NCBI GenBank assembly: GCA_000004985.1
Contig: GG738847.1
Direction: 5' to 3' (one strand)
DNA length: 64,000 bases
DNA from: Naegleria gruberi
Taxonomy: Eukaryota
Shown: piece by piece, positions 6-44,193 of the stretch
Position numbering within the stretch: the first letter of the stretch is position 1
Layout of the letters: the number at the start of each line of letters is the position of its first letter
Translations under genes and position numbers: made by a program
Notes under the pieces: model-generated
Told to the model about the DNA's origin: nothing
The model's input: the letters and a program-made list of their open reading frames with translations, nothing else
Databases searched by the model: none

Positions 6-248
6 ATGTTTAAGGAAAAATTTAAAGAATTATTACAAGCTGATGAAAGCCAGTTATTGAATATGCTAGTTTTTCAAAAATGGGCAAACAAATATGTTAA
101 AGTTGAAAGTATCTTAAATGAGGCAAGTTCTAAGGTTAAACAATATGCCAAAAAAGAACAAGAATTACTTGGCAATAATGATAAAACTATCCACAAGTTC
201 GTTGTCATTCAAGTTGGTTGGCCTCTTATTGTGAGGAAAGTAAATTAA
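6..248 (+). CDS. C-terminal fragment of an unknown protein (gene begins left of the window); tandem paralog of the next ORF
   Basis: ORF ends ...KTIHKFVVIQVGWPLIVRKVN*. The ORF at 354..686 ends in a near-identical tail (...KSIHKYAVIQVGWPLIVRKLN*). I cannot assign a family. Confidence 0.35.
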   Translation: MFKEKFKELLQADESQLLNMLVFQKWANKYVKVESILNEASSKVKQYAKKEQELLGNNDKTIHKFVVIQVGWPLIVRKVN

Positions 249-353: not shown

Positions 354-686
354 GTGATAAGAACTTCTAAAAAAGTATTAATAATTGAATTCAAACGTAT
401 TAGACCAAATTCTTTAACAAAATATTCCAATATTGAATATTGGAATCCGCAAATTTTTAAAAATATATTTAAAGATTTATCTAAACAAACTGATGAAGAA
501 TTATTAGAAATGGAAGTACTTACTCATGCCAAAGAGAAAGTTGTAGCCAGATCAATTTTGAATTCTGCAATTTCTCAAGTCAAACAATATGCTCAATATG
601 AAAATGATGCTGACAAATCAAAAAGCATTCATAAGTATGCAGTGATACAAGTTGGTTGGCCCTTAATTGTAAGAAAATTGAATTAA
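354..686 (+). CDS. Paralog of the preceding module, unknown function; true 5' end is probably in an upstream exon
   Basis: The 110-aa ORF shares its last ~45 aa with the 6..248 ORF (SILN.A.S.VKQYA...IHK..VIQVGWPLIVRK.N). The ORF-track start is GTG, not ATG, so upstream exons are likely. Confidence 0.4.
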   Translation: MIRTSKKVLIIEFKRIRPNSLTKYSNIEYWNPQIFKNIFKDLSKQTDEELLEMEVLTHAKEKVVARSILNSAISQVKQYAQYENDADKSKSIHKYAVIQVGWPLIVRKLN

Positions 687-1319
687 AATGTTTGCTGCAA
701 CTAAAAGAACTTTCTACAGTTGCTCTCTTTATCACTAAATAAAAAGTTGAATGATGTATAGACAACTTTCGTGTAAAAACTTGTTCTCCAGACATGCTCA
801 TCTCCTAAATGAAAAGATAAAAATCTTTGAACAAAGTGCGCCAGGTTTCGAGATGAAAAAGTTGTCAATATTTCACTATTCTGTTATCTCTAATGATGGC
901 AGGTTTTGGGATAACAATTTCAAGGATTAGGAAATTGAGTGTTTGCATAGAATCACAATACATCAACAAGCAATACATGAACCAACGCTTAATATTATAA
1001 GGTAATATAGAATGATGTTCACGTATACAAGTCAAACACATCCCTCAGCAACTGTCAAATGTCATGCTTTGGGACTCGCAATATTAATGTGTAGTTTTTG
1101 GCGAGGATCATCTCTTGATGGAATAACAAATAAGAGATTATCTCAAGATAAAATATATTATTTGGATTCTCAAATCTAAGTGTCTGTATTTATTTTTTAT
1201 TTTATATTGAATGTTGGTAAAATCTCCCGAAAACCCAAGTATTGACATCCATTGACTGCTTAGTTTTCAGCCAAAACTTGCTTTGGTTTCAAGCCGATAA
1301 AATCCCACTAAAAGTACTA

Positions 1320-2106
1320 GGGCAAAATAATTTAATTCCGATCACATTCAAATTCCGATCATTGGTGTAGAAATAAATTGTTGATTTATTTGAAATGTCA
1401 TTGGGAAGTCATGGCTCTTTCTCTCCACAATCAATACATAAGATGTTGGTAATCTCTTTTCCATTGATTGTTTCTGTTGATGGCATTGTACATGTTTTGG
1501 AATGGCATAATTTTTTACAAGTAGAGCATGTCATTATCGTCTTTAAATTTACATCCATAGTAGCAGCATATATTTTGTGATGATGATGCACTTGGAGAGG
1601 AGGTTGGATTTCTATCCATAGTATATCCACTAACAATATTATGATGGGTTAGAATTTTCATATGCTTCATGTAATATCTTTGTAAAGTCTTTTTTGGATT
1701 ATTTTCACTCCTTTAATTCATCCTCTTCCTCTTTAGTAAAGTAGGTCTTTCTACCAGCATGTGAATTAATTGATGATCTTCCATTTACTAGATCATTAAA
1801 AGTTGTATATGGAATGTCGAATTTTTTGGCTACGCTTCTGATGGAGGCACCATTTGTGGTATTTTAATATTCTAATGCTTTATCTCTCTTCTCCTCCTCC
1901 TCCTGTTGCTGTTGTTCATGTTCCTGCTTTTTTGTTAATTTCTTCTTAATCATGATGATGAAGGTGATCGGAATTATATTTTTTTCATATTAAAAATGGT
2001 TGTAAACTTTGGTAATTTTGTTGTACATAAAAACTTTGAAAGTTTACTATTAAAATTGTTCAAGATGATCGAAAATCGAGGTGATCGGAATTGAAATATT
2101 TTGCCC
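1320..2106. mobile_element. Degenerate non-autonomous TIR DNA transposon (Tc1/mariner-pogo-like), about 787 bp, flanked by TA
   Basis: Left end 1320..1346 is gggcaaaataatttaattccgatcac. Right end 2081..2106 is gtgatcggaattgaaatattttgccc, which is its near-perfect reverse complement. A further subterminal copy of ggtgatcggaatt lies at ~1969. Both ends abut the dinucleotide TA (1318-1319 and 2107-2108). The interior holds a transposase HTH remnant. Confidence 0.6.
1706..1953 (-). pseudogene. Transposase N-terminal HTH (psq/CENP-B-like, pogo/Tc5-type) remnant with an in-frame stop
   Basis: Minus-strand translation reads MIKKKLTKKQEHEQQQQEEEEKRDKALEY*NTTNGASIRSVAKKFDIPYTTFNDLVNGRSSINSHAGRKTYFTKEEEDELKE*. 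The GASIRSVAKKF.IPYTTFNDLVNGR...GRKTYFTKEEEDEL pattern is typical of a psq-type HTH in pogo-like transposases. There is an in-frame TAA near 1866. No DDE catalytic domain follows. Confidence 0.5.
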
Positions 2107-2739
2107 TAATGATACATTTTAAATTGTGCAATTTGGAATTTGCTTTGGGTATAGTGTTGAACACATTTTCAAGTTGACTATTGTAAAGTTTAAATGTTTC
2201 GTCTACAGTTTAATTAACGTTGAAAAGAGTTCGTGTGAGTACTTCTGTAAGGCTTGCGTAATGTAAAAAGGGAGATGTTGGAACGAGGTATCAAGTTCCT
2301 TTGAATTAAACTGAACTAAACGAAACATTACAATAATACTATTAAACAATATGTTGAACAACTACAGTTATTGATTGTTTCAAAAAGTGATCACTCAAAA
2401 TTGACTGGTACTATACTGTTAGAGATCATTCTCCAGAATGGCAATACCTCATTGTTTGTGGTGGCAGTTGACATGAGAACCTCGCATTCCCTTCGCCAAT
2501 CATTAGAAAAAAAACACACACATCCCAACGAGCTAGCACACATAAATAGACGCTGCAACTAGTTCACTGACCATCCATCATCAGAATCGCAGCAAATATA
2601 TTCCACATCATCATTTCGTACATAAAATTAAAGTACTTGCCTCGATATAAAGTATTTCTTCATCTCACAACAATTTATACCTTCGAGAGGAATAACATCA
2701 ACAACAACAAACTGACATATTATCATATTATATATTGAC

Positions 2740-3438
2740 ATGATTTTTAAGAGACTTTTTGCATCACCGATTGTATCAGCATCTGCGGAGGATGATATAA
2801 GTACACTTTCATCATCAACTCATCGACTCAATCGAAAGGTACTGAAAATAATGATATTAGGAGATGGTGAAAGTGGAAAAACAAGTATTGCTAAACAACA
2901 AATAGAAACATCAGGATTTACATTTAAACAGCCAAAGAGTGACCAAGAAGTATTGGAAGGTCAAAATTGTTTTGTTATTGTGGATGGAAAGGATGTGACT
3001 GTTAAATTATTGGATTCACCACCAGGAAATGATATTGGTTTAACCATTGAATGTGTTAAAGATTGTGATGGATTTATATTGGTGGTTGATTTGAGTCGTC
3101 CAAAAACGCTACAAGTTTTGAATCGATACAAGGCACTAATGTTAGAAAATTTATCCATGTCAACAATTCCTTGTGTGATTGCTGCTAATAAGTGTGATTT
3201 GGAAAGACAATTATCCATGTCACAGGTTAATGCATTTGCCAAGAACTTTTTCATTGATAGAAGTATTGCTAGTTTTGAATGTAGTGCATTGTCTGGTAGT
3301 GGTATCAATGACATGTTTTCATTCCTTTATAATCTTATCAAGACTTCTCAGAAGGAAGATAAACCAATCATCAAGGCAAAACAAAAACGTGGACTTCTTT
3401 CCTCTTCCTCAGAATCAAATGCTGATGAATGGTTTTAA
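2740..3438 (+). CDS. Ras-superfamily small GTPase, divergent
   Basis: P-loop ILGDGESGKTSI (GxxxxGKT/S) and an NKCDL G4 motif are present. The switch II region is atypical (LLDSPPGND). Single exon of 232 aa. Confidence 0.55.
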   Translation: MIFKRLFASPIVSASAEDDISTLSSSTHRLNRKVLKIMILGDGESGKTSIAKQQIETSGFTFKQPKSDQEVLEGQNCFVIVDGKDVTVKLLDSPPGNDIGLTIECVKDCDGFILVVDLSRPKTLQVLNRYKALMLENLSMSTIPCVIAANKCDLERQLSMSQVNAFAKNFFIDRSIASFECSALSGSGINDMFSFLYNLIKTSQKEDKPIIKAKQKRGLLSSSSESNADEWF

Positions 3439-3537
3439 TAAGGTTAATTATTGACCTTTTTGTTTTATTTAATAATTATATGAGTGAGAGAGATTTGAGA
3501 GCATTTTTGACTGTACAATAGAGGAATGTTGGATTAC

Positions 3538-4211
3538 TTATAAGTTATTGGAAACAACCAATAATCCTGAAAATTTGTCATTAAAATAATCCTTCTTCTT
3601 GTATGAAAGCATCAATTCTTTGAAATCTATAAAGTTTGTAAATGAAAGAAGCATTTCGAAAACATCTCCTGACATATCACCTTCCTCAAAATCTTCCCAA
3701 TCATCGTCATTGCTATCATCTTCAATATCGTTATTCTTCTGTCTGTCCTTCTCTACCTTTTCCAGCACTTTTAAAAAACGATCCATTTCAAAATTATCAA
3801 TCTTTTCTGATAAAGATTGCTCCAGGTATTTTTCGATCATACCTTGATACTCGGTAAATATTGATGTGTATACAAGCTTGTTTTCTTCTCCTTCATCGAA
3901 TTGATTACAGTACTTTTCAGCAAAAGAATCTATCATTTTGGAAAATTGATTCTCTATATTATTAAGAAATAATCAAGCGATATGTTGGATTGGTTGTTAT
4001 TGTATGAACCAAAGAGGATATTTCATCATCATACAAAATATTGTTCGGCATTTTCTTCAGTAAAAAGAATCTCAAAATACCTACCCATCAACGTTTCCTC
4101 GAGAGCCCCTATTATTGAATCAAAATATGCTTGTTCTTCATCTTGTGGTGATGAGGCTAAAAATTCGTCGTCTTCTTGGACGCTTTGGTCGTATTCCTTA
4201 GATTTTGTCAT
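3538..4211 (-). CDS. ARL2BP: ARL2-binding protein (ARL2BP/BART) homolog; 2 exons (4211..4035, 3951..3538) with an ~83-nt intron
   Basis: Exon 1 reads ...EQAYFDSIIGALEETLMGRYFEILFTEENAEQYF. The donor is GTATGA and the acceptor is ...ATATAGAG. Exon 2 reads NQFSKMIDSFAEKYCNQFDEGEENKLVYTSIFTEYQGMIEKYLE...GDVFEMLLSFTNFIDFKELMLSYKKK...FSGLLVVS. This matches my memory of human ARL2BP (FDAVVGYLEDIIMDDEFQ...EENKLIYTPIFNEY...DIFDMLLTFTDFLAFKEMFLDY...SGLVVTS). Confidence 0.7.
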
Positions 4212-4707: not shown

Positions 4708-4788
4708 GTTGAGGTGGCCGAGTGGTTAAGGCGCCAGCCTGCTAAGTTGGTGGAGTAATCCGCGTGGGTTCGAATCCCATCCTCAACG
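4708..4788 (+). tRNA. tRNA-Ser (anticodon GCU)
   Basis: Acceptor stem GTTGAGG pairs with CCTCAAC. D-arm is GCCGAGTGGTTAAGGCG. Anticodon stem CCAGC/GTTGG carries the loop CTGCTAA (anticodon GCT). There is a long variable arm. T-arm is GTGGGTTCGAATCCCAT with the B-box GGTTCGAATCC. No CCA is encoded. Confidence 0.85.
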
Positions 4789-40419: not shown

Positions 40420-43400
40420 ATGAAAAGAAAACAAAAAGAAGCTCAAATCATTTCATCATCGGATGAAGCAGATGATGAAGTTGTTGTTGTGATTAATTCG
40501 AGTGATGAATCGGAAGAGGATGATAACGATTATGGTTATTCACTAGTAAAGGGTAGTGGCCAATATAAGTCTCTTTATGATTTTACTATTGTGTCAAATC
40601 CTGATTATTTGGAGAATGGAGATAAACCAAGGTTCTTTTCTATTGAAGGATTGACTTCGGTTGGAAAGGAATTATTTGCTTGTGGAATGTGCTTTAGTCA
40701 TGACAAGAAAACTGACAGCAAAGTTGGCTCACGTTCAGTATTTGGACCTATTAAAGAATGGGCAATAGAATATAGATTCTTGCCTGTTGTTAGTATTTTG
40801 GTTGAAACTTCGTCAAAGGATACCGAGTGGATTGAACTTATTTCTCCAACAAAAGAATATTTTCACATATTCAATTCTACATATCAGACGATTGCTGTGT
40901 GCCATGCTTTGATTAATCTTGTTCAGAGACATCCAAAAGAGTCGTACGAATCTATTATAGAAATGGTAGGTTTATTGGAATTATTCAGTCTTTAACATTT
41001 AAATAGCTCAAAAAAGCACAATTGGCTTTTATTTACCACCCAACCATAAGAAATACTAAACCCATTGTAAGCGAGGATTACATTCTTGAAAAATCAAAAT
41101 TTATTTCAGAACAATTCAATAGTTTACAAGAGACGAGGGTTTTAAACTCTTCATTCTTTTCACAACTAGTAAGTGTCTTCTTAAATTAATTCTAACGCAT
41201 TTATAGGAGGACATAATGATGAGAGGGGGAGTTCTTGCTGAACTTATTACTTCATCTGAGGAGGAAGAGGATGACACTCAATCAACAAGCTCAGAAGAAG
41301 AGTTTGTTCCAAAGGGTGCTCACTCTGATCCAAGTGATGAATCCATGTCAGAAGTTGTCTCAGAATCATCAGATTCTTCTGACTCTTTTTATAAACCAAA
41401 ATCTGTGAAAACTAAAAAGCAAACAAAATCTAAGAAAACCCTCTCTACTGTATCAACTAAAAAGGAAAATTTAATTAATGACGATTATTCGAGTGGCTCT
41501 GAGGAAGAAACTAAGACTAAGAAAACTAAAGCAAAATCCTTGAAGAAAACAACAGTCAAAAAAGAAAAGAAGGAGAAGGAAATTGTAAATAAGAATTTAG
41601 AACAAATTAAAGCCCATGACCTTGAAGATATCAAATGGGGAAAGCCAATCAGTAAGAAAATTGACGAATCAGGTCGAAAATATTTCAAGTCTTGTAAAAT
41701 TTCAAAAGAGGAATATAATATTGGCGATTTTATCTACTTGAAAACTCCATATCTCAATCATGAAATGCCATACTATATTTGTATGGTTGATTCATTCTTT
41801 GAAAATTGGAAAGGTCAGCGTCAGATGCGAGTGAGATGGCTTAGAAGATATCAAGATATTAAGATACTTACTACAGGAGAATATCATAATGTACTTTGTT
41901 ATGATCACCAGGAGTTGTACTTGACAGACGAATATGATGATGTGAGTATACTTACTTTAATTAATTACAAACATAATATTTTAGAACTTTATCAAGAACA
42001 TTAAGGGAAGATGTGCTGTATTTTTTGTAAGAAAGACTGAAGATTTTGAAAAAATTGAAGGATCACGAGATAAGAAGGATATTTTCTATTGTAAAAGCAA
42101 GATTGTAATTGTTGGAGAACAGATTTCTCTGTTAGAGTTAAGTCCACAAGAAATTGAACTCACATTCAAATGTATGGAAAATAACTTGAATGCCATTAAG
42201 GACCAATTCATTCCAAAAGAAAAAATTACAGCTCTTGACATATTTTCTGGTTGCGGTGGGTTGAGCCTAGGGTTGGAAAGAGCAGGTATCCATGTTAAAT
42301 ACAGCATCGAATTTTGGAAACCAGCAGCTGATACTCATCACTATTATTTCAAAGATTGCCACACCTTTTGTAAGAATGCCGAAGAGTTCCTCAAGCACAT
42401 TAAGGTGGCTAATGAATTGAAAAAAAGGTTTGGTCTTTTAGATAAAAAGTGTCAAATCAAAGGTTCACCTGGTAAGAGAAGAGTGATCCACATCAAAAAT
42501 GCCAAAAGAAAGAAGGATGGATCTCTTTGGTTAATGGTTGAGAAACAGGGTCAAGATTTGTGGATGGATGTTGAAAAAATGGATAGTTATAGAGCAGAAA
42601 TTGTACATTTTCTATCAACAAAATATGCAAACATACCAGCACCTGACGAAATTGATTTAATTGCTGGAGGACCTCCTTGTCAAGGATTCAGTTTACTGAA
42701 TAGATTCAAAGAAACAGATTCATCAAAGTTCTTATCACACGATAAGAATCGTTTAGTTTTAGTGTTTTTGGATTATGTGAAATACTTTAAGCCTAAATAT
42801 GTACTGATTGAAAATGTGACAGGTATTCTTAACACGACAGTATTTGATGTACCATCAGCAATCATTGAAAAGTTGGATGCAAGAGGTTATGAAGCCAAAT
42901 TCTCAACAGTTAACGCACAACACTTTGGAGTAAGTTTTTAATATATTTCAATAACGTAATTTATCGTTAAAGTTACCACAAACAAGAACAAGAGTAATTT
43001 TCTTTGGTGCAAGAAAGGATGAAAACCTTAAAGTTCCAGATTTCCCAAAGAATACTCATGCTTCCCATAAAGTTAGTGCTGTTCTTGACAATGCCAGTCA
43101 GGTAAAACTTGTAGCAAATGTAAGAAAGATTGTTGCAGGACCTCTTCCTCCTGTTTCACTCAGAGATGTTATTAGTGATCTGATTCCTTTTGAGGATTCA
43201 TCAGAATCAACTGCTGAATATCTACCTCCAAAGACAGTCTATCAAAAGCTCTATAGAAAGGATAGCGATACTTGCATTGATCACATTTCACAATCATATG
43301 GAGAGGTAACCTCAGCACTTATCAAATGTTTACCTAGATATCCTGGTTGTAATTTTAGAGATTTGGCAGAAAGTGCAAGACCACTTTTAAAAGAGGGTTA

Positions 43401-44193
43401 TTTGACCTATAGAGACTTTTCCAAGAATATTCTAGCTAGATTGCAGTGGAGTAAGAGTTGCCCAACACTTGTCACTCACTTGAACCCATATAGTATGAAG
43501 GTAATTCATCCCAATCAACATCGAGTTATTTCTGTAAGGGAGGCTGCTAGATGTCAGGGCTTCCCTGACGATTTTATATTTACTGGAAGCATTCACGATA
43601 AGTACAAACAAATTGGTAATGCTGTTCCTGTGAATATGGCCAAGGCGTTGGGAGGTGAAATTATTAAGGCCTATACAAATCATCTTTTAGACAAGAATGG
43701 AAATAGAAGAGAGGTTGAAGCAACAACAACGAAGAAATTGAGAGAAAATATGTACAAATGGTTTTCAGATCTGAAGTCATGGGCCAGTAAGGACTATGAA
43801 CCAAAACCTTTACTCAAGGAACTCATAGATATTCTAAAACCAATTGACAAATCTCTATGTGATGGATATCTAGTTCCACCGACAGACGAGGATATTCAAT
43901 TCTTGAAAAAAGAAATACCGAGACTGGTTCAGAAACATGCCAGTGATACAGAAGAGGTTATTACCCAAGAAGTCAAGGTCATTTATAATGATTCGTCAGA
44001 TGACGATGAAGCTGATGCAGAATGCTCAAATTCAGAAGAATCTGACAATCAAGACGAAGAAACTGAAATTCAAAAAGCTGCTTCTCAAAGAAAATCAAAG
44101 AAAGCTCCAGCCAAAAAGAAACCTGTTCTATCTGAAAGCTCTTCTGAAGAAGAAGAAGCTATCATTAGTATTTCTGATTCTGATTCTGATTAA
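40420..44193 (+). CDS. DNMT1: DNMT1-family cytosine-5 DNA methyltransferase (RFD + BAH + C5-MTase), ~1,202 aa; 5 exons (40420..40965, 41007..41168, 41207..41941, 41985..42929, 42973..44193)
   Basis: The RFD-like N-terminus has SLYDFTIVSNPDYLENGDKPRFFSIEGL...FGPIKEWAIEYRF...TEWIELISPTKEY, against DNMT1 RFD ...[27 protein letters not shown]...LGPINEWWITGFDG...AEYILMDPSPEY. The BAH domain reads YNIGDFIYLK...YICMVDSFFENWKGQRQMRVRWLRRY...GRCAVFFV. MTase motif I is DIFSGCGGLSLGLERAG, IV is GGPPCQGFS and VI is ENV. Motif VIII spans the exon 4/5 junction (HFG|LPQTRTRVIFFGA). IX/X is QIGNAVPV. The tail is acidic and S-rich. Donors are GTAGGT, GTAAGT, GTGAGT and GTAAGT, and introns are 41, 38, 43 and 43 nt. 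All junctions are in frame. Confidence 0.85.

What the first reader, a model, noticed from the sequence alone, without database searches (positions are those of the whole stretch)
1318..2108. TA-flanked terminal-inverted-repeat element with a decayed pogo/Tc5-type transposase HTH: a dead DNA transposon
The segments 1320-1346 and 2081-2106 are near-perfect inverted repeats (gggcaaaata[a]ttt[ac]aattccgatcac). Each abuts a TA dinucleotide, which is the Tc1/mariner/pogo target-site duplication. A third copy of gtgatcggaatt lies subterminally at ~1969. The interior encodes, on the minus strand, a psq/CENP-B-like helix-turn-helix (GASIRSVAKKFDIPYTTFNDLVNGRSS...GRKTYFTKEEEDEL). It is interrupted by an in-frame TAA and lacks any DDE catalytic domain. 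The ~790-bp length fits a MITE-like deletion derivative. It marks this otherwise ORF-poor 0.7-2.7 kb stretch as transposon-derived, and it supplies a TIR sequence for finding autonomous copies elsewhere in the genome.
Basis: seen in the sequence. Interest (0 to 1): 0.5.

Follow-up and report, generated by a model that had tools for sequence, protein, structure and literature searches.

The report
Dead pogo-type transposon in Naegleria
This 791-bp stretch of the Naegleria gruberi genome is a broken, internally deleted copy of a pogo-type cut-and-paste DNA transposon, which makes it an ordinary genomic fossil, though it does point to a pogo lineage in Naegleria amoebae that I could not find described in the searchable papers.

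Summary
The window is Naegleria gruberi. Positions 1318-2108 are a TA-flanked element with 26-nt terminal inverted repeats (24/26 identical; none expected by chance).

- **Coding remnants.** The minus strand keeps the first ~82 codons of a transposase (psq-like HTH, with a TAA stop at 1864-1866). About 470 codons in between are deleted, including most of the Tc5 HTH and the whole DDE_1 domain.
- **Relatives.** They are pogo-type transposases (HTH_Tnp_Tc5 + DDE_1, DD35D) from N. fowleri, N. lovaniensis and environmental contigs.
- **Shared ends.** Three environmental elements have the same ends (TA|GGGCAAAA... or GGGTAAAG...). One of them (L002) also shares the inner motif AATTCCGATCAC.
- **TA duplication.** In one relative, removing the element plus one TA rejoins a Sel1 reading frame, which supports a TA target-site duplication.
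- **Binding motif.** The 12-mer recurs next to each end. It also sits 10 nt upstream of the start codon, and that copy co-varies with the end motif across relatives.

Copy number in N. gruberi and the existence of an autonomous partner there could not be tested. This is ordinary biology: a new member of a known kind.

The parts
1318..1319 (.). Left flanking TA (putative target-site duplication copy)
   Evidence: Sequence. All 7 readable ends of the family are TA-flanked: window x2, L003 x2, L007 x2, L002 x1.
1320..1362 (-). 3'-end terminal inverted repeat, relative to the transposase orientation. The core is 1320-1345. It carries two copies of the 12-mer AATTCCGATCAC/T, at 1334-1345 and 1351-1362, spaced 17 nt apart.
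   Evidence: (I1, D11). The region is 86% identical over 43 nt to the L002 terminus.
1363..1408 (-). 3' untranslated remnant between the stop codon and the TIR
   Evidence: Position only. It lies between the TGA at 1409-1411 and the TIR.
1409..1610 (-). Remnant of the transposase C-terminus (Cys-rich). One frame covers 1610-1548 (..SSSQNICCYYGCK). A second frame covers 1540-1412 (TIMTCSTCKKLCHSKTCTMPSTETINGKEITNILCIDCGEKEP), followed by the TGA stop at 1409-1411. The two frames are separated by an 11-nt frameshifting deletion: 22 nt at 1529-1550 where L007 has 33 nt.
   Evidence: tblastn of P0056 residues 581-622 matches 1540-1415 (45% id, 55.8 bits), and residues 554-574 match 1610-1548. blastn hits L003, L007 and L006.
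1611..1707 (-). Unassigned about 97 nt at the deletion junction. It has no detectable homology to relatives. DNA homology to L002 and L008 stops at 1706.
1708..1953 (-). Remnant of the transposase N-terminus: 82 codons from ATG 1953-1951 to ..EEDELKE, covering a basic/acidic tail and a psq-like helix-turn-helix. An in-frame TAA lies at 1864-1866, and a TGA follows at 1705-1707.
   Evidence: Translation. P0014 residues 1-82 match at 50% id, 84 bits. Family profile E 5.4e-17. Pfam HTH_psq E 0.0019. HMMER against 1.84 billion proteins.
1954..2080 (-). 5' untranslated region. A copy of the TIR 12-mer lies at 1964-1975, 10 nt upstream of the ATG. A degenerate copy lies at 2065-2076.
   Evidence: (I2, D1). 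The same arrangement is seen in L002, L008 and L003, with the motif co-varying.
2081..2106 (+). 5'-end terminal inverted repeat core (GTGATCGGAATTGAAATATTTTGCCC)
   Evidence: 83% identical over 48 nt to the L002 terminus.
2107..2108 (.). Right flanking TA (putative target-site duplication copy)
   Evidence: Sequence.

Best explanation
Positions 1318-2108 are a non-autonomous, internally deleted and mutated copy of a pogo-superfamily DNA transposon in Naegleria gruberi.

**Shown.**
- The parent type is about 2.1 kb. It has short TIRs starting TA|GGG(C/T)AAA.
- It has one ORF for a transposase with a psq-like HTH, a Tc5 HTH, a DDE_1 core with a DD35D triad, and a Cys-rich C-terminal extension.
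- The window copy keeps both ends, the 5' UTR, codons 1-82 and about the last 65 codons.
- It has lost about 1.4 kb in between, and it carries a TAA nonsense codon and an 11-nt frameshifting deletion.

**Inferred from how Tc1/mariner/pogo elements work.**
- The transposase HTH binds the 12-mer AATTCCGATCAC, which is present twice in each end. It then cuts the element out and pastes it into a TA, which becomes duplicated.
- The internal deletion arose by abortive gap repair after an excision.
- This copy can make no transposase. It could move only if a cognate transposase is supplied in trans.
- The extra 12-mer copy 10 nt upstream of the start codon is probably a further transposase-binding site, acting in autoregulation or as a transposition enhancer. 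This last step is speculative.
For: - **Organism.** The window is N. gruberi.
- **TIRs and motif copies.**
- **N-terminal homology.** The best single-domain hit among 1.84 billion proteins is P0014 (55% id, E 1.7e-11). Full transposases P0040, P0048, P0041 and P0024 also hit. They carry HTH_Tnp_Tc5 + DDE_1 and a DD35D triad. Named members come from N. fowleri and N. lovaniensis.
- **Collinear matches.** tblastn shows collinear N- and C-terminal matches with nothing in between. The family profile's four best hits in the whole window all lie inside the element and in order. DNA homology to L002 and L008 stops abruptly at 1706.
- **Shared termini.** L002 starts TA|GGGCAAAACCATTGAATTCCGATCACC. L007 is a complete 2.1-kb element, TA|GGGCAAAATTATGG...CCATAATTTTGCCC|TA, with an uninterrupted 623-aa ORF. 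L003 has 27-nt TIRs, TA|GGGTAAAG.., and spans about 2.13 kb.
- **TA duplication in a relative.** Removing the L003 element plus one TA puts the upstream Sel1 ORF in frame with the downstream Sel1 ORF. Removing zero or two TAs does not.
- **Motif co-variation.** The pre-ATG motif co-varies with the TIR motif in 4 of 5 elements.
Against: - Only one copy could be examined. No other copy is in the 64-kb window.
- No autonomous N. gruberi copy turned up among annotated or ORF-called proteins.
- The TIR pattern was absent from the JGI metagenome and viral collections.
- The TA duplication cannot be proven for this copy without an empty site.
- The closest relatives are only 50-55% identical in protein and 68-78% in DNA. 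The actual parent element has therefore not been seen.
- About 97 nt (1611-1707) are unexplained.
- Binding of the HTH to the 12-mer, and any role for the pre-ATG copy, are inference only.
Confidence: 0.9

Rival explanations
1. It is one member of an amplified, high-copy MITE family in N. gruberi, derived from the pogo-type element and still mobilised by an active master copy. This would be a live non-autonomous family rather than a solitary fossil.
For: The element is short (791 bp), has well-preserved TIRs (24/26) and has intact binding-motif copies at both ends. From general knowledge, pogo-like elements are known to spawn MITEs, for example Lemi1/Emigrant in Arabidopsis.
Against: No second copy lies in 64 kb. 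No close transposase ORF was found in a database that includes the N. gruberi proteome. The element still carries long recognisable coding remnants, unlike typical MITEs. Copy number was not testable here.
Confidence: 0.25
2. It is a Tc1/mariner-proper element (DD34E/DD34D lineage) or a Stowaway-like MITE, not a pogo element.
For: A TA flank and short TIRs are shared by the whole IS630-Tc1-mariner group (Gao et al. 2020, PMC7386202).
Against: All significant relatives of the coding remnants carry Pfam DDE_1 and HTH_Tnp_Tc5 and a DD35D triad, which is the pogo signature. Beyond Naegleria, the next-best hits are animal HTH_psq + DDE_1 proteins, including a protein annotated as 'Pogo transposable element with KRAB domain'.
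Confidence: 0.03
3. The HTH remnant is a domesticated or still-functional small DNA-binding gene, for example a transposase-derived repressor, rather than dead sequence.
For: Truncated transposase N-termini act as repressors in other systems (general knowledge). The start codon and the upstream motif are intact.
Against: A TAA interrupts the HTH after codon 29, at a position occupied by F, Y or K in relatives, so it is a plain nonsense mutation. A TGA follows at 1705-1707. No protein with this sequence is on record.
Confidence: 0.02
4. The inverted repeat is a chance or structural feature, such as a hairpin or an assembly artefact, and has nothing to do with transposition.
For: None beyond the AT-rich context.
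Against: Zero matches are expected by chance. The same terminal sequence bounds transposase-encoding elements in independent contigs.
Confidence: 0.01

Closest known systems
pogo superfamily of IS630-Tc1-mariner DNA transposons, especially the DD35D groups (Passer and Fot/Fot-like) as classified by Gao et al. 2020 (PMC7386202)
   Same: The relatives of the window's coding remnants have HTH_psq-like + HTH_Tnp_Tc5 DNA-binding domains, a DDE_1 core and DD35D spacing. Their TIRs are short (<=40-60 bp) and TA-flanked.
   Different: The TIR termini start GGG(C/T)AAA, whereas the Entamoeba pogoR entries I could read in that paper's table start CAGTA. The transposase carries an extra Cys-rich C-terminal extension with no Pfam match; its CXC-like block gives only a weak TCR/CXC hint at E 0.41. 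No phylogeny was done, so assignment to Passer, Fot-like or a separate clade remains open. The window copy itself has no DDE domain.
Internal-deletion derivatives and MITEs of pogo-like elements, for example Arabidopsis Emigrant from Lemi1 and human Tigger-derived MER elements (from general knowledge, not tested here)
   Same: A short element keeps the TIRs and subterminal sequences of a pogo-type parent but has lost the transposase core.
   Different: This copy still keeps about 150 recognisable codons from both ORF ends. Amplification to high copy number was not shown.
IR/DR-type Tc1-like elements such as Sleeping Beauty and Tc3, which have several transposase-binding repeats per end (from general knowledge)
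   Same: Each end carries two direct copies of the presumed binding motif. The 5' side has an additional internal copy.
   Different: The repeats are only 16-17 nt apart, not about 165-180 nt. The extra copy sits 10 nt from the start codon. Binding has not been tested.

Membership tests
pogo superfamily (as a non-autonomous derivative) | Residual coding sequence is homologous to transposases that carry the pogo DNA-binding domains (psq/CENP-B-type HTH + HTH_Tnp_Tc5) | tested here: met
   The N-terminal 82 codons are 50-55% identical to P0014. Family profile E 5.4e-17. The relatives carry HTH_Tnp_Tc5. Pfam HTH_psq on the window peptide alone is sub-threshold (18.3 vs 20.4 bits).
pogo superfamily (as a non-autonomous derivative) | Termini are shared with elements that encode a DDE_1 transposase | tested here: met
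   L002 has the same first 8 nt and the identical 12-mer (86% over 43 nt). L007 has the same first 10 nt. L003 starts GGGTAAAG. L007 and L003 encode DDE_1 proteins.
pogo superfamily (autonomous element) | Own DDE_1 catalytic domain with a DDxD triad | tested here: not met
   No DDE-like sequence is present in 1318-2108. Relatives have DD35D. The element is therefore a derivative, not an autonomous pogo element.
pogo superfamily / IS630-Tc1-mariner group | TA target-site duplication | tested here: inconclusive
   A TA lies on both sides, and 7 of 7 family ends are TA-flanked. In relative L003, removing the element plus one TA restores the Sel1 frame. No empty site is available for the window copy, and TA is palindromic.
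MITE (miniature inverted-repeat transposable element) | Short (< about 800 bp), with TIRs and a TSD | tested here: met
   791 bp including the TAs; 26-nt TIRs.
MITE (miniature inverted-repeat transposable element) | High copy number of near-identical copies in the genome | not testable with these tools
   The N. gruberi assembly is not searchable here. There is one copy in the 64-kb window.
Tc1/mariner sensu stricto | DD34E or DD34D catalytic triad and Tc1/mariner-type transposase domains | tested here: not met
   The relatives match DDE_1 / HTH_Tnp_Tc5 with DD35D.

The most novel reading that the evidence does not exclude
The element and its environmental and Naegleria relatives may define a pogo clade of Naegleria-type amoebae that has not been described. 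Three features would mark it:

- TIRs that start GGGYAAA.
- A Cys-rich C-terminal extension on the transposase.
- A transposase-binding motif that recurs about 10 nt upstream of the start codon and co-varies with the TIR motif, which suggests the transposase regulates its own expression by binding there.

In addition, N. gruberi may still harbour an unannotated master copy able to move this element.
Probability: 0.3. Interest if true: 0.35.

Novelty: new member of a known kind. Interest (0 to 1): 0.2.

Why it matters
The main value is for annotation. The result explains an ORF-poor intergenic segment upstream of a Ras-family GTPase gene in N. gruberi. It also supplies TIR and protein queries for cataloguing a pogo-type family in Naegleria, including the pathogen N. 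fowleri, where a homologue is annotated only as an 'HTH CENPB-type domain-containing protein'.

The motif copy next to the start codon, which co-varies with the TIR motif, is a small testable lead on transposase autoregulation. Nothing here challenges current understanding of DNA transposons.

Tried and rejected
- **Word-indexed protein search** with the window peptide found nothing. Only the exhaustive HMMER scan found relatives.
- **Exact look-ups** of eight short ORFs inside and around the element were not in the collection. The upstream 110-aa ORF was not on record.
- **Empty-site attempt.** The only other contig from this locus is L001, which is 99.3% identical. It starts at window 2365 and does not reach the element.
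- **TIR pattern scans** returned no hits: JGI metagenomes twice and viral contigs.
- **Protein-based locus scans** of the prokaryotic genome and viral collections found nothing.
- **Literature.** No paper in the library describes pogo elements of Naegleria. Gao et al. 2020 report Fot-like pogo in one Excavata species, but I could not find which one in the held supplements.
- **TIRs around the N. fowleri and N. lovaniensis homologues.** None were convincing.
- **Pfam on the Cys-rich C-terminus.** There was no significant family.
- **An apparent 'KRKR' match in another frame at 1733-1700.** I rejected it as a frame-shifted reading of the GAAGAG-rich EEEDE codons.
- **Weak inverted similarity of the flanks outside the TAs**. 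I judged it uninterpretable in AT-rich DNA.

Full report
**Source and context.** Five window ORFs are exact matches to Naegleria gruberi proteins on a 941,567-bp scaffold. The window is about 33% G+C. It is densely packed with ordinary eukaryotic genes:
- a Ras-family GTPase, a CRAL-TRIO protein and a pseudouridine synthase;
- an ABC transporter, a TAF6 homologue and a DNMT1-like gene (continuing into);
- aconitase;
- a dynein heavy chain and the largest subunit of an RNA polymerase.

The finding lies in a 2-kb ORF-poor gap upstream of the Ras-family gene.

**Checking the observation.**
- The inverted repeat is real. Arms 1318-1345 and 2081-2108 are 28 nt and 93% complementary.
- The 26-nt core differs by two substitutions. 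A degenerate pattern matches only these two places in 64 kb, with 0.00 expected.
- Gapped alignment extends the repeat to about 45 nt, because each end carries a second, less perfect copy of the inner 12-mer 16-17 nt further in.
- The 12-mer GTGATCGGAATT occurs four times at <=1 mismatch, against 0.35 expected. A degenerate fifth copy lies at 2065-2076.
- Both ends abut TA. TA frequency is 0.07, so the chance of two is about 0.005.

**What the coding remnants are.**
- Pfam alone gives only a sub-threshold HTH_psq match (E 0.0019, 18.3 bits). A word-indexed search found nothing.
- An exhaustive HMMER scan of 1.84 billion representatives found 42 proteins at E<=1e-3.
- The best single-domain hit, P0014 (55% identity, E 1.7e-11), and the full-length hits P0040, P0048, P0041 and P0024 all carry HTH_Tnp_Tc5. 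The full-length ones also carry DDE_1, with a DD35D triad.
- Named members are hypothetical proteins of N. lovaniensis and N. fowleri. The rest are environmental or Logan contigs.
- A profile search returned this small Naegleria-type group first. Animal HTH_psq + DDE_1 proteins followed at about 30% identity, including a protein annotated as 'Pogo transposable element with KRAB domain'. No N. gruberi protein appeared.

**Anatomy of the window copy.**
- tblastn of the relatives against 1200-2300 shows two collinear blocks on the minus strand. Residues 1-82 of P0014 match 1953-1708 (50%, 84 bits). The extreme C-terminus of P0056 matches 1610-1548 and, in a different frame, 1540-1415 (45%, 56 bits). 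The window ORF ends one codon after the aligned end.
- A family profile searched against all six-frame pieces of the window puts its four best hits inside the element, in order. It hits nowhere else.
- DNA homology to L002 and L008 stops abruptly at 1706.
- About 470 codons are therefore missing: most of the Tc5 HTH, all of DDE_1 and the CXC-like block. This amounts to about 1.4 kb, which fits the roughly 2.1-kb full elements.
- Between CCYYGC and CSTC the window has 22 nt where L007 has 33, so an 11-nt frameshifting deletion is present.
- The TAA aligns with F, Y or K in relatives, so it is a simple nonsense mutation, not an intron.
- About 97 nt (1611-1707) at the junction match nothing.

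**Related elements and their ends.**
- L002 (ENA metagenome) begins ...TA|GGGCAAAACCATTGAATTCCGATCACCATCAAATTTCGATCG. About 220 nt later it has AAATCCGATCACTTTCATCATCATG, followed by the P0014 ORF. This is the same architecture as the window's 5' end.
- L007 is a complete 2.1-kb element. Its ends are TA|GGGCAAAATTATGGAACTCCGAAC ... GTCGGAATTCCATAATTTTGCCC|TA, and it has an uninterrupted 623-aa ORF.
- L003, L004 and L005 come from three samples and carry a roughly 2.13-kb element with 27-nt TIRs, TA|GGGTAAAGTAATGCAAGTTGGGTCAG. It sits inside a Sel1-repeat gene.
- Deleting that element plus one TA puts the upstream Sel1 ORF in frame with the downstream one and reads through a canonical Sel1 repeat. 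Deleting none or two TAs does not. This supports a 2-bp TA duplication for the family, although a matching frame has a 1-in-3 prior.
- All seven readable ends in the family are TA-flanked.
- The N. fowleri and N. lovaniensis genomic copies show no convincing TIRs. The N. lovaniensis protein is truncated and has DD35E. Those copies may be immobile remnants.

**Binding-site architecture.**
- The inner TIR 12-mer differs between sub-lineages: AATTCCGATCAC in the window and L002, AATGCCGATCAA in L008, and AAGTTGGGTCAG in L003.
- In each of these four, a copy of that lineage's own motif sits immediately upstream of the start codon. The gap is 10 nt in three of them, and the copy abuts the ATG in L003. 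L007 shows only a weak version.
- This co-variation argues that the pre-ATG copy is functional. I infer that it is a further transposase-binding site, acting in autoregulation or as an enhancer, by analogy with multi-site ends in Tc3 and Sleeping Beauty. No binding data exist.

**Mechanism.**
- Shown: TIRs, TA flanks, homology to DD35D pogo-type transposases, an internal deletion, and disabling mutations.
- Inferred from established knowledge of IS630-Tc1-mariner/pogo elements (Gao et al. 2020, PMC7386202): cut-and-paste transposition into TA, deletion by abortive gap repair, and possible trans-mobilisation.
- The copy cannot encode a transposase.

**What could not be settled.**
- Copy number in N. 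gruberi and the existence of a master copy are unknown.
- TIR scans of JGI metagenomes and viral contigs were empty, as were protein-seeded scans of prokaryotic genomes and viral contigs.
- No close ORF exists in a database that contains the N. gruberi proteome.
- The only other contig from this locus (L001, 99.3% identical) starts 257 bp beyond the element, so no empty site is available.

**Comparison and novelty.**
- The element is a non-autonomous derivative of a pogo-superfamily transposon. The family shares its DD35D triad and its HTH_psq-like/HTH_Tnp_Tc5 domains with the Passer and Fot-like groups.
- Two traits set the family apart. Its termini start GGGYAAA, unlike the CAGTA termini of the Entamoeba pogoR entries I could read. 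It also has a Cys-rich C-terminal extension with no Pfam match.
- I found no paper describing pogo elements of Naegleria. Repbase could not be consulted.
This is ordinary biology, a new member of a known kind, and of low interest.

Noticed in passing
window 6-248 and 354-686 (+): Two tandem paralogous ORFs end in ..(V/A)VIQVGWPLIVRK(V/L)N. The last 67 nt are 75% identical between them. Neither has a Pfam match, and the 110-aa ORF is not on record as a called gene.
   Followed up: partly
window 4708-4788 (+): A tRNA-Ser (anticodon GCT). It is the only Rfam or ARAGORN hit in the window.
   Followed up: yes
window 40420-44193 (+): A DNMT1-like cytosine methyltransferase gene is split over several ORFs (DNMT1-RFD, BAH, and DNA_methylase N- and C-parts). 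The splits are presumably introns.
   Followed up: partly
L003 3560-3580 (also L004, L005); window 1529-1550: The environmental element carries a +1 frameshift just before the last Cys-rich block of the transposase, and it is identical in contigs from three samples. The window copy has an 11-nt deletion at the same spot. This could be coincidence, a mutational hot spot, or something programmed; I did not examine it.
   Followed up: no
L010 4001-7045 (N. fowleri) and L009 4001-5311 (N. lovaniensis): The N. fowleri gene model (807 aa) joins the pogo-type transposase to a DDE_Tnp_4 (Harbinger-type) domain. No TIRs were found around either genomic copy. The N. lovaniensis protein is truncated and has DD35E. 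These copies may be remnants, nested transposons or domesticated genes.
   Followed up: partly
L001 (ENA ERZ929261) = window 2365-3967: A metagenome contig is 99.3% identical to the window (4 mismatches, 5 gaps). N. gruberi-like DNA from a slightly different strain is therefore present in that sample. Its other contigs might hold an empty or filled allele of the insertion site.
   Followed up: partly
window 1300-1319 and 2107-2126: The flanks just outside the two TAs show weak inverted similarity (TAAAAGTAC vs TAAAATGTATC). This may reflect a palindromic target preference or may be chance in AT-rich DNA.
   Followed up: no
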